Shown here: one piece after another, positions 19,850 to 22,854 of the stretch
Numbering within the stretch: the first letter of the stretch is position 1
Layout: each line of letters begins with the position of its first letter
NCBI RefSeq assembly: GCF_009914755.1
Contig: NC_060930.1
Source: the human T2T-CHM13v2.0 reference genome, Homo sapiens
Strand: one strand, 5' to 3'
DNA: 64,000 nt
Notes under the pieces: model-generated
Told to the model about the DNA's origin: nothing
Seen by the model: only the letters and a program-made list of their open reading frames with translations
Databases searched by the model: none
Position numbers and translations under genes: made by a program

Positions 19850-20697
<848 letters not shown>

Positions 20698-21000: not shown

Positions 21001-21322
<322 letters not shown>

Positions 21323-21623
21323 GTCTTCTATTCTTTAACAGGCCATAAGCTCCTTAGAGGAGTGCATTTTGTACTCTCAGATTCCCCAGGTAGACCTACT
21401 GTATATGGCACAGAAAAGGGTCTCAGTTAATGTTGGCTGACAGAAGGAGTGATTGAACAATTATCTGTACATATTTACCACTTACACAAGGTGGAAATGC
21501 ACCCAACATGAAATCGTACAAATGTCATGGCTTCCACCATGGAAAAAATTATGTATGCGTGAGGACAAGAGCTAAAAAACAAGAAAGAAAATGTCTAGAG
21601 TCACTTGTGAGGCTGGAACTGTG

Positions 21624-22001: not shown

Positions 22002-22274
22002 CAACACAGTCCTTCACTCTTTCCCTTATTAAATTTACAGCTGTTTGTTTAATTGACCTTTTTGTAAAGGTTCCGAGGACAACATAGTAAGGGATGCTCA
22101 TTCATCTCTCTGCCAGTGCTTTCTGCGGTCTCTTCAGCTAGTTCTATCAGGCACTTCTGGCAATCTGGAGCGGCAGCCGGCTGGGCGGGGAGGAAACCGC
22201 TGCACGGATCCCGCCTCCCAGCACACGCAGTCGGCAGTTGCAGCCTCCAAGACCGCGGTGCCACCAAACCAAGC

Positions 22275-22572
22275 GCCGGACGCGGTGGCGCGCGCCTGTA
22301 ATCCCAGCTCCCCGGGAGGCTGAGGTCGGCGGATCGTGGGTGCTCGGGGGTTCGGAGCTACGGCGCTGTGTGGAGCGGGCGTCCGCACCGGGCCTGGCAC
22401 CAACATGGTACTCCCGGGGGAGCCCGGGAGTACCAGGTTGTCTAAGGAGGGGGGGACCAGGCCCAGGCCGGACACGGAGCAGGTCAAACTCCCCGTGTTG
22501 GGCGACGGTGGGACCGCGCCTGCGAGCAACGCCTGCAGTTCCGCCCGGGACATCCGACGAGACCCGGTCTCT
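22275..22572 (+). ncRNA. RN7SL471P: Full-length divergent 7SL (SRP) RNA gene or pseudogene
   Basis: Collinear with 7SL from GCCGG to GTCTCT, including the S domain (helix 6 GGAG loop, helix 8 CAGG/AGCAG). Symbol is from recalled position; functional status is discussed in findings. Confidence 0.9.
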
Positions 22573-22600
22573 TTTAACTTCCCTTTTCGGGATTTCTTTT
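22572..22600 (+). terminator. Pol III terminator T-runs after the 7SL copy
   Basis: TTTT at 22572-22575, backed up by TTTT at 22584-22587 and TTTCTTTT at 22593-22600. Confidence 0.7.
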
Positions 22601-22854
22601 AAAAAATCAACAGCATTATTTCTGCATACCAAGTGAGTTCACTGGTGGGACTGGTATATGCTACCCTTTGCTCGATCTTCCTTTTTTTTTTTTTTACCCC
22701 TCAGGGAATGATGATTCATTCAGTCAGTGGGAGCCGGAAGAAACTCGTTAGTGACTTATCATCTTGGAAATTTCTCCATGTTGCACTCTTCCTTTCCCCA
22801 AACAACAAGACAGTAGTCTGTTTTGCATTTTGCAAATGCAGTTGCATAAGAATT

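What the first reader, a model, noticed from the sequence alone, without database searches (positions are those of the whole stretch)
22275..22600. Supposed 7SL pseudogene looks like a structurally selected, Pol III-terminated variant SRP RNA gene
Seen in sequence: the copy is full length with dozens of substitutions against recalled RN7SL1, but they are mostly paired. (1) Helix 6 is a perfect 12-bp stem GGTACTCCCGGG-GGAG-CCCGGGAGTACC (22407-22434; canonical GGTGACCTCCCG-GGAG-CGGGGGACCACC) that keeps the GGAG loop. (2) In helix 5, CACTA/TAGTG becomes CACCG/CGGTG (22386-22390 / 22506-22510), TCGC/GCGA becomes TCGT/ACGA, CCAGG/CCTGG becomes TCGGG/CCCGG, and CGGAGCT pairs with AGTTCCG. (3) The terminal GAGGTCGG/CCGGTCTC pairs throughout when G-U is allowed. 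(4) The UGUNR motif (TGTAA) and the helix 8 CAGG/AGCAG loop are intact. It ends in TTTT plus backup T-runs, has no poly(A) tail or TSD, keeps its CpGs and lies about 4 kb from tRNA genes. Established: 7SL retrocopies usually carry A-tails and TSDs, lose CpGs and decay without covariation; SRP19, SRP54 and SRP9/14 bind these motifs. Inference: an expressed, old paralogous SRP-like RNA, possibly forming a specialised SRP.
Basis: partly seen in the sequence, partly recalled or inferred. Interest (0 to 1): 0.92.

Follow-up and report, generated by a model that had tools for sequence, protein, structure and literature searches.

The report
Divergent 7SL copy keeps SRP fold
A human DNA stretch labelled as a dead copy of the signal-recognition-particle RNA gene has changed about a quarter of its letters yet kept the RNA's folded shape almost perfectly, so it has most likely been preserved as a working RNA gene, though its expression has not been shown.

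Summary
Window 22275-22573 (+) is a full-length match to Rfam Metazoa_SRP (200.6 bits). It is only 72-77% identical to the three chr14 7SL genes. Even so, 102 of 120 model base pairs are standard, against 100-101 in the real genes. Nineteen pairs differ on both sides and still pair, and 6 are broken. Shuffling the same substitutions gives 77.8±3.5 pairs, and 0 of 20000 shuffles reach 102. Long-range helix 5 alone is significant. Twenty retro-pseudogenes behave neutrally in the same test. Unlike them, this copy has no A-tail, ends in the genes' own T4 terminator, and keeps 34 CpGs inside a ~450-bp CpG island. Its ancestral CpG sites diverged less than its other sites. The SRP9/14, SRP19, SRP54 and 5e motifs are kept. 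The helix 8 tetraloop is GACA, not GNRA. Transcription and protein binding could not be tested, and no orthologues were available. A 2024 preprint already singles out RN7SL471P as the only conserved 7SL pseudogene. Verdict: a structure-selected divergent 7SL paralogue, probably mislabelled as a pseudogene. A "specialised SRP" remains speculation.

The parts
22125..22274 (+). CpG-rich 5' flank, the upstream half of a ~450-bp CpG island; a candidate upstream promoter region
   Evidence: GC 0.65 and CpG o/e 0.71, against 0.26-0.39 further out on both sides. The stretch is unique in the genome. Similarity to the chr14 genes' upstream 60 nt is weak and inconclusive: z 0.9, 1.5 and 2.7, while controls reach 2.6.
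22183..22188 (+). GGGCGG (Sp1-type box) at -92/-87
   Evidence: Sp1 boxes in the -90/-52 region are described for mammalian 7SL genes in PMC7279448 (passages). Binding was not tested.
22210..22215 (+). CCCGCC (Sp1-type box, other orientation) at -65/-60
   Evidence: compared with Table 1 of PMC7279448.
22245..22252 (+). CTCCAAGA at -30/-23, where 7SL genes carry their TATA-like box
   Evidence: It matches 5 of 8 positions of the CTCTAGTA consensus for -31/-24. This is not significant on its own. It is also GC-richer than the chr14 genes' boxes.
22275..22573 (+). Full-length SRP RNA (7SL) homologue, annotated RN7SL471P
   Evidence: RF00017 positions 1-299, 200.6 bits, E 1.8e-54. 102/120 model pairs are standard. 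The MFE of -165.4 kcal/mol reproduces the SRP architecture.
22349..22359 (+). B-box-like GGTTCGGAGCT at +75
   Evidence: It has 2 mismatches to GGTTCGANNCC. The chr14 genes have no match within 2 mismatches. The three tRNA genes of the window match with 0-1. The consensus is recalled, not taken from a call.
22401..22440 (+). Helix 6 with its GGAG tetraloop (22419-22422); the distal 12 bp are a perfect palindrome (22407-22434)
   Evidence: 17/18 model pairs are standard, against 15/18 in the gene. Three pairs changed on both sides, and two gene mismatches became pairs.
22448..22494 (+). Helix 8: the internal loops (CAGG / AGCAG) are kept, and the apical tetraloop GACA lies at 22471-22474
   Evidence: Invariant columns are listed. 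The loop changes from GAAA to GACA (model column 199, A>C).
22572..22575 (+). T4 run at the RNA 3' end, a Pol III terminator in the same place as in the chr14 genes
   Evidence: The string CTCTTTT is shared by all four copies.
22584..22600 (+). Two further T4 runs (22584-22587 and 22597-22600)

Best explanation
RN7SL471P is an old paralogue of the chr14 7SL genes, not a decayed retro-pseudogene. For most or all of its history it has been kept under selection for the SRP RNA fold, which means selection acted on an RNA product.

Proposed mechanism. Steps 1 and 3 are inferred; step 2 is shown at the level of sequence and predicted folding.

1. Pol III starts at G22275. It would be driven by the internal A/B-box region (the B-box-like GGTTCGGAGCT at +75) together with a GC-rich upstream flank carrying Sp1-type boxes and a weak TATA-like box. 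It stops at the T4 run at 22572-22575.

2. The ~300-nt RNA folds into the standard SRP RNA architecture: the Alu domain (helices 2-4), the long helix 5, helix 6 and helix 8. The predicted fold is more stable than that of canonical 7SL.

3. The RNA keeps the UGUAAU turn, G13/G14 with C34/C37, the GGAG loop of helix 6, the helix 8 internal loops and A240. It should therefore bind SRP9/14, SRP19, SRP54 and SRP68/72 and form an SRP-like particle. That particle would probably be of low abundance. The altered helix 8 tetraloop (GACA) and the fully paired helix 6 could change how it assembles.
For: The match is full length and strong: RF00017 at 200.6 bits.

The fold is kept despite heavy divergence. 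83 of 299 model columns differ from the chr14 gene, yet 102/120 pairs are standard against 100-101 in the genes. Of the 120 pairs, 14 changed on both sides and stayed paired, 5 gene mismatches became pairs through two changes, 17 changed on one side and stayed paired, and 6 are broken. Shuffles of the same substitutions give 77.8±3.5, with 0/20000 reaching 102. Helix 5 alone has 59/71 against 45.4±2.8, 0/20000. All helices except helix 6 give 85/102 against 69.2±3.0, 0/20000.

The result does not depend on the alignment or the structure source. On a structure-blind MAFFT alignment, 13 pairs changed on both sides, against 4.5±1.7 in shuffles (0/500) and 1-3 in slid controls. RNAalifold recovers an SRP-like consensus on its own.

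Retro-pseudogenes calibrate the test. Twenty of them give z of mean 0.87 and max 3.35, against 5.04 for 471P. A regression on those 20 predicts 94.8 bits and 0.654 paired at 76.9% identity. The observed values are 200.6 bits and 0.835.

The features around the gene are those of a gene, not a retrocopy. It has the T4 end like the genes, while most sampled retrocopies carry A-rich tails. It has 34 CpGs at o/e 0.91 inside a CpG island. CpG-site divergence is 9.1% against 25.5% at non-CpG sites, the reverse of 19 of the 20 retro-pseudogenes.

The positions of the protein-binding motifs are invariant.

The MFE fold contains 65 of the 102 Rfam pairs, against 11 of 101 for the chr14 gene.

Independent support comes from a preprint. 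It reports RN7SL471P as the only one of 684 7SL pseudogenes with significant phyloP100 conservation (10.1101/2024.12.08.627405; Results, Methods and a Discussion passage read).
Against: No evidence of transcription or Pol III occupancy was obtained. The name is absent from the four held supplements of PMC12775064. It is also absent from the 53 RN7SL occurrences in the stored, truncated supplement of PMC9151912.

The CRE at about -50 of the real genes is missing within 2 mismatches, and the TATA-like box is GC-richer. PMC7279448 states that such changes lower 7SL transcription. G6>A alters the A-box region and breaks pair 6-21.

No 471P-derived retrocopy exists among the scored genome matches: the best non-self hits are the chr14 genes at 74-77%. 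This argues against abundant germline RNA.

The helix 8 tetraloop is not GNRA.

All the covariation rests on one sequence compared with its human paralogues. No orthologues could be examined.
Confidence: 0.7

Rival explanations
1. It is the relic of a once-functional paralogue. The RNA was selected for its fold over a long period, but the gene is now silent or only recently dead, and what is seen is an undecayed corpse.
For: The promoter looks weakened: no CRE, a GC-rich TATA-like box and G6>A. No retrocopies derive from it. The preprint does not single it out for expression. GACA replaces the GNRA loop.
Against: There is no excess of broken pairs: 18 non-standard model pairs against 19-20 in the working genes. 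Ancestral CpG sites are 91% intact, and the body plus flank is still a CpG island. Both argue against tens of millions of years of methylated, unconstrained decay. A recent death, on the order of 10 Myr by my rough estimate, cannot be excluded.
Confidence: 0.2
2. It is a neutral pseudogene. Its pairing would then come from chance, GC-biased gene conversion, or template-switch mutations that copy one hairpin arm onto the other.
For: Substitutions are biased from A/T to G/C, 47 against 22. The perfect 12-bp palindrome of helix 6 could arise from a single template-switch event. That mechanism is recalled from the literature, not taken from a call.
Against: The shuffles keep the from-to substitution counts, so they already contain the GC bias, and they never reach the observed value. 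The signal stays significant without helix 6 and in helix 5, whose partners lie up to ~250 nt apart. Real neutral copies lose 7-29 pairs at lower divergence. One-sided changes run both ways: reading the pair list, I count 9 GU>GC, 7 GC>GU and 1 UA>UG. Three pairs flip between G-C and C-G.
Confidence: 0.04
3. It is a DNA-level element, such as a CpG-island promoter or a TFIIIC/Pol III-bound boundary in the tRNA cluster. Conservation would then reflect protein binding to DNA, not an RNA.
For: It has CpG-island character and Sp1-type boxes. It lies in the 6p22 tRNA cluster, 3.9 kb from a tRNA gene. It has a B-box-like motif.
Against: DNA-binding constraint does not predict compensatory changes between positions up to 250 nt apart, nor retention of RNA loop motifs.
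Confidence: 0.06

Closest known systems
Canonical human 7SL/SRP RNA genes on chr14 (loci L002, L003, L004; the RN7SL1/2/3 names are recalled)
   Same: The length is the same to within a base (299 vs 300 nt), and the Rfam family and architecture are the same. The number of standard pairs is equal. The CTCTTTT end is shared. Both have a CpG-rich body and upstream flank. The positions of the protein-binding motifs are invariant.
   Different: Identity is only 72-77%, while the three chr14 genes are 98-99% alike. The Rfam score is 200.6 against 286-293 bits. 471P has no CRE, its helix 6 is fully paired, and its helix 8 loop is GACA. GC is 0.71 against 0.62-0.63, and the predicted fold is more stable. 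It lies on chr6 in a tRNA cluster.
7SL retro-pseudogenes (RN7SLnnnP; 20 sampled here: L005-L017, L019-L021, L023, L024, L026, L027)
   Same: All derive from 7SL, share the annotation class and pass the RF00017 gathering score.
   Different: Most of the retrocopies carry A-rich tails right after ...TCTCT. All have CpG-poor 5' flanks. All but L005 and L006 have CpG o/e of 0.06-0.34 in the body. They have 7-29 broken pairs and 0-4 double changes at 79-92% identity. All but L005 have CpG sites 2-8 times more diverged than other sites. 471P shows the opposite on every count.
7SL-derived exapted Pol III genes (BC200/BCYRN1, rodent 4.5SH, snaR, Alu source genes)
   Same: All descend from 7SL and are Pol III type-2 genes, with upstream TATA-like, CRE or Sp1 elements (passages of PMC10498592 and PMC7279448).
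   Different: Those RNAs came through SINE intermediates (Alu or B1) rather than a full-length 7SL copy. By recall, they keep only Alu-domain sequence. 471P is a full-length copy with a complete S domain.
Small-RNA 'pseudogenes' re-read as functional genes (RNU2-2P, RNU1-27P, RNU1-28P)
   Same: All are labelled P by nomenclature yet are conserved. The same preprint flags RN7SL471P as the one conserved 7SL pseudogene.
   Different: Those snRNA copies are close in sequence to their parents and highly expressed. 471P is 25% diverged, and its expression is unproven.

Membership tests
Metazoan SRP RNA (Rfam RF00017), as a sequence/structure family | A full-length covariance-model match above the gathering score (70 bits) | tested here: met
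   200.6 bits over model positions 1-299, E 1.8e-54.
Metazoan SRP RNA (Rfam RF00017), as a sequence/structure family | The helices 2-4, 5, 6 and 8 are formed by standard pairs | tested here: met
   102/120 model pairs are standard, against 100-101 in the chr14 genes. The MFE fold and the RNAalifold consensus both give the same architecture.
Functional SRP RNA | Alu-domain motifs: the UGUNR turn, and the loop-loop partners G13/G14 with C37/C34 (numbering and roles recalled) | tested here: met
   T23 G24 T25 A26, G13, G14, C34 and C37 are invariant in the four-way alignment. The loop changes A36>C and U38>C lie next to them.
Functional SRP RNA | Helix 6 GNAR tetraloop (SRP19 site; role recalled) | tested here: met
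   GGAG at 22419-22422, invariant.
Functional SRP RNA | Helix 8 GNRA tetraloop. This is a typical conserved feature; I do not treat it as strictly defining | tested here: not met
   GAAA in the chr14 genes, GACA at 22471-22474 in 471P.
Functional SRP RNA | Helix 8 internal loops that bind the SRP54 M domain (role recalled) | tested here: met
   CAGG and AGCAGG are invariant. The 5' side of the asymmetric loop has A>G plus one inserted base.
Functional SRP RNA | The 5e motif with A240 (SRP72 site; role recalled) | tested here: met
   G237-A240 are invariant; the neighbour 241 is U>C.
Functional SRP RNA | Transcribed by Pol III: upstream CRE and TATA-like box, internal control region, T4 terminator | tested here: inconclusive
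   The T4 is present at the right place. A B-box-like motif and Sp1 boxes are present. The CRE is absent within 2 mismatches. The TATA-like box matches 5/8. Upstream homology is not significant. Transcription itself cannot be tested with these tools.
Functional SRP RNA | Assembles with SRP9/14, SRP19, SRP54 and SRP68/72 | not testable with these tools
   Only motif retention could be scored.
7SL retro-pseudogene | A-rich tail after the RNA 3' end, with flanking target-site duplications | tested here: not met
   TCTCTTTTAAC... follows the body, with no A-rich run. The longest flank repeat is 6 nt, and 372 of 1000 shuffles do as well. Age could have erased both features.
7SL retro-pseudogene | Neutral decay: CpG loss, and pairs broken without compensation | tested here: not met
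   CpG o/e is 0.91, and CpG-site divergence is 9.1% against 25.5% elsewhere. z is 5.0-7.2 for pair retention.

The most novel reading that the evidence does not exclude
Humans, and probably other mammals, carry a fourth, deeply diverged SRP RNA gene in the 6p22 tRNA cluster. Its product would assemble with SRP proteins into a variant particle, or act as a decoy for them, with altered assembly or stability. The altered features would be a hyper-stable helix 5/6 and a non-GNRA helix 8 loop. That would mean SRP heterogeneity encoded at the RNA level.
Probability: 0.3. Interest if true: 0.9.

Novelty: new member of a known kind. Interest (0 to 1): 0.7.

Why it matters
SRP RNA in humans is treated as the product of three near-identical chr14 genes. 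A fourth copy that is 25% different in sequence but intact in fold would be the first candidate for an RNA-encoded SRP variant in mammals.

It would also be another small-RNA "pseudogene" that needs re-annotation. [quoted passage not shown]

The S-domain half of this copy has no genomic match above 77% over most of its length. It can therefore be tested directly in existing Pol III ChIP-seq, TGIRT/nanopore small-RNA and SRP-protein CLIP data without multi-mapping ambiguity.

Tried and rejected
**Genome-wide ranking.** A genome-wide Rfam RF00017 scan of the window's own assembly failed four times with machine errors. I therefore could not rank 471P among all ~700 copies.

- Paper reading closed, so the supplements of PMC4864463 and the other papers that mention RN7SL471P could not be read.
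- The Pol III ChIP-seq paper with DOI 10.1101/gr.101337.109 is not held.

**Orthologues.** No mammalian genomes are available in these tools. No orthologue covariation test was possible.

**Literature searches for the locus.**
- Searches for a printed description of a conserved, structured or Pol III-occupied 7SL paralogue showed nothing relevant in their listings.
- A search for mouse Rn7s6 also showed nothing relevant in its listing.
- The search on the name itself found 10 papers.
- The passages read in PMC3896398 and PMC10498592 do not mention the locus.

**Upstream homology to the chr14 promoters.** The first MAFFT view suggested a shared GCAGC(C/T)TC... block. The anchored alignment test was not significant for two of the three genes, and one of 39 control comparisons scored as high. 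I do not claim promoter homology.

**Target-site duplication.** Only a 6-mer (ACCAAG) is shared between the flanks, which is at chance level.

**Helix 8.** On its own it shows no significant excess of pairs: 12/15, with 1480 of 20000 shuffles as high. It is simply conserved.

**Bit score.** By bit score alone 471P is not exceptional, since four of the 20 retrocopies score 208-220 bits. It is exceptional only relative to its identity.

Full report
**What is there.** Window 22275-22573 (+) matches the Rfam metazoan SRP RNA model RF00017 end to end: model positions 1-299, 200.6 bits against a gathering score of 70, E 1.8e-54, GC 0.71. A DNA search of the window's own assembly shows that the nearest relatives are the three chr14 7SL genes, at 74-75% identity over the full length. 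Everything else found is an ordinary 7SL pseudogene or an Alu. The three chr14 genes score 286-293 bits.

**Is the fold kept beyond chance?**

I placed 471P and the chr14 gene L003 on the 299 model columns, using the cmscan alignments.
- They differ at 83 columns: 70 of 240 paired columns and 13 of 59 unpaired ones.
- Even so, 471P has 102 of 120 standard pairs, against 101, 101 and 100 in the three genes.
- The 120 pairs break down as follows:

| Class | Pairs |
|---|---|
| Unchanged standard pair | 64 |
| Changed on one side, still paired | 17 |
| Changed on both sides, still paired | 14 |
| Gene mismatch turned into a pair by two changes | 5 |
| Gene mismatch turned into a pair by one change | 2 |
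| Gene pair broken | 6 |
| Non-standard in both | 12 |

Redistributing the very same from-to substitutions at random gives 77.8 pairs (sd 3.5, max 91). None of 20000 shuffles reaches 102. Restricting the shuffles to paired columns gives the same result.

The signal is not carried by helix 6 alone:
- Helix 5, whose partners lie up to ~250 nt apart, has 59/71 against 45.4±2.8 (0/20000).
- All helices except helix 6 have 85/102 against 69.2±3.0 (0/20000).
- Helix 8 alone is not significant (1480/20000). It is simply conserved.

The cmscan alignment is fitted to the structure, so I repeated the work on structure-blind alignments.
- A pairwise alignment gives 76.9% identity, 96/115 pairs standard, 12 double changes and 7 broken pairs.
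- On a MAFFT alignment, the count of structure pairs finds 13 pairs changed on both sides. Shuffles give 4.5±1.7 (0/500) and slid controls give 1-3.
- RNAalifold, with no input structure, returns an SRP-like consensus of 101 pairs, 13 of them with kept double changes.

**Calibration against real pseudogenes.** Twenty 7SL retro-pseudogenes came from the same genome: L005-L017, L019-L021, L023, L024, L026 and L027. I left out L018, L022, L025 and L028-L030, which are Alu-like or poor matches.
- At 79-92% identity to the gene they have 62-81% standard pairs, 7-29 broken pairs and 0-4 double changes.
- In the same shuffle test their z-scores average 0.87 (sd 1.18, max 3.35 for L027). 471P scores 5.04 on that alignment.
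- A regression over the 20 predicts 94.8 bits and 0.654 paired at 471P's identity. The observed values are 200.6 bits (+2.9 sd) and 0.835 (+4.2 sd).
- By bit score alone 471P is unremarkable, since four of the 20 retrocopies reach 208-220 bits. It is exceptional only given how far its sequence has moved.

**Gene-like, not retrocopy-like.**
- Most of the sampled retrocopies run from ...TCTCT into A-rich tails. All of them have CpG-poor upstream DNA. All but L005 and L006 have CpG o/e of 0.06-0.34 in the body.
- 471P ends CTCTTTT exactly as the three genes do, and two more T4 runs follow within 28 nt. It has no significant flanking direct repeat.
- It carries 34 CpGs (o/e 0.91), more than the genes, which have 19-22.
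- With its 150-nt upstream flank (o/e 0.71) it forms a ~450-bp CpG island. The DNA on either side has o/e 0.26-0.39.
- The most telling point is this. Relative to the gene, 471P has changed 25.5% of non-CpG sites but only 9.1% of CpG sites. In 19 of the 20 retro-pseudogenes the order is reversed: 6.7-16.1% against 27-55%.
- I infer two things. The locus has escaped germline methylation decay for a long time. It is also older, or faster evolving, than every sampled retrocopy.
- Both flanks are single-copy in the genome.

**Promoter signals are mixed.** PMC7279448 (passages) describes three upstream elements in mammalian 7SL genes: a TATA-like box (CTCTAGTA, -31/-24), a CRE (TGACGTCA, -51/-44) and Sp1 boxes between -90 and -52.
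- 471P has GGGCGG at -92/-87 and CCCGCC at -65/-60.
- Its TATA-like box matches only 5 of 8 positions (CTCCAAGA, -30/-23).
- It has no CRE within two mismatches.
- An anchored alignment of the upstream 60 nt with the chr14 genes is not convincingly above chance (z 0.9, 1.5, 2.7; controls reach 2.6). I therefore do not claim promoter homology.
- Internally, 471P has a B-box-like GGTTCGGAGCT at +75, which the chr14 genes lack. The consensus is recalled, and the three tRNA genes of the window match it with 0-1 mismatches.
- G6>A touches the A-box region.

**RNA features.**
- Folded alone, 471P gives -165.4 kcal/mol (z -2.6), and its minimum-energy structure is the SRP architecture. It contains 65 of the 102 Rfam pairs.
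- The chr14 gene folds to -136 kcal/mol into an alternative structure that contains 11 of its 101 Rfam pairs.
- These positions are invariant between 471P and the genes: the UGUAAU turn, G13/G14, C34/C37, the GGAG loop of helix 6, CAGG/AGCAGG in helix 8, A213-A215 and G237-A240. Their assignment to SRP9/14, SRP19, SRP54 and SRP72 is recalled knowledge.
- Three deviations stand out. The helix 8 tetraloop is GACA instead of GAAA. The 5' side of the asymmetric loop has A>G plus one inserted base. Helix 6 has lost its two mismatches.

**Expression is unproven.**
- Passages in three papers show that reads get assigned to RN7SL471P: PBMC RNA-seq, exosome RNA-seq, and a heterozygous SNP with extreme allelic imbalance in brain fractions, which the authors excluded as an outlier.
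- A methylation study lists a 4-probe differentially methylated region in the locus.
- None of these demonstrates a Pol III transcript. The first ~60 nt resemble Alus at up to 94% identity, so mis-mapping is possible.
- The name does not occur in the held supplements of a nanopore Pol III study. It also does not occur among the 53 RN7SL occurrences in the stored, truncated supplement of a Pol III occupancy study.
- No genomic copy is closer to 471P than the chr14 genes are (40 of 1649 and 40 of 71 candidates scored). It has therefore spawned no detectable retrocopies, unlike canonical 7SL.

**In print.** A 2024 preprint scored 684 7SL pseudogenes by phyloP100 and states that only RN7SL471P shows significant conservation. 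It calls a functional role a noteworthy possibility (10.1101/2024.12.08.627405; Discussion passage, Results and Methods read; supplements closed). This is independent support for constraint, and it means the idea of function is not wholly new. I found no printed account of the compensatory-pair evidence, the CpG pattern or the non-retrocopy anatomy (searches; listings only for most hits).

**Verdict.** I put about 0.9 on the locus having been under RNA-structure selection. I put about 0.7 on the fuller reading reported as best explanation, that it is a structure-selected paralogous gene which is probably still active. A recently silenced relic gets about 0.2. The neutral and DNA-element readings are poorly supported. 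A "specialised SRP" is a reasonable but untested extrapolation.

The main limits are these:
- Only human paralogues were compared, with no orthologues.
- There are no transcription or binding data.

Noticed in passing
L005 (G000:C9:9453224-9453510 region; locus coordinates ~1501-1787): This 7SL copy is 92% identical to the gene and keeps its CpGs (18 CpGs, o/e 0.73). CpG-site divergence is 9.5% against 7.3% elsewhere, and it has no A-rich tail. However, it has 10 broken pairs and no compensations, and its upstream DNA has no CpGs at all. It escapes CpG decay without any sign of structural selection.
   Followed up: partly
L027 (G000:C1:40674088-40674377) and L015 (G000:C16:72813822-72814087): These two retro-pseudogenes carry A-tails and are CpG-depleted, yet they keep more pairs than shuffles predict (z 3.35 and 2.16; 4 double changes each). 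They may descend from a variant source gene.
   Followed up: no
L004 upstream (chr14 7SL gene at G000:C14:44058838-44059137, minus strand): This chr14 gene lacks the TGACGTCA/TGACGTAA CRE that the other two chr14 genes carry at about -50. It also has CTCTAGCA as its TATA-like box.
   Followed up: no
window 20388-20661 and 21040-21323 (minus strand): Alu elements just upstream give partial RF00017 hits (17-46 bits). One also gives a sub-threshold mir-1268 hit (68.2 bits against a gathering score of 83) at 21138-21189.
   Followed up: no
window 22682-22695: A T14 run lies 110 nt downstream of the 7SL copy. From about 22845 onward the flank matches an interspersed repeat present at many loci (87-95% identity over ~45 nt).
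   Followed up: partly
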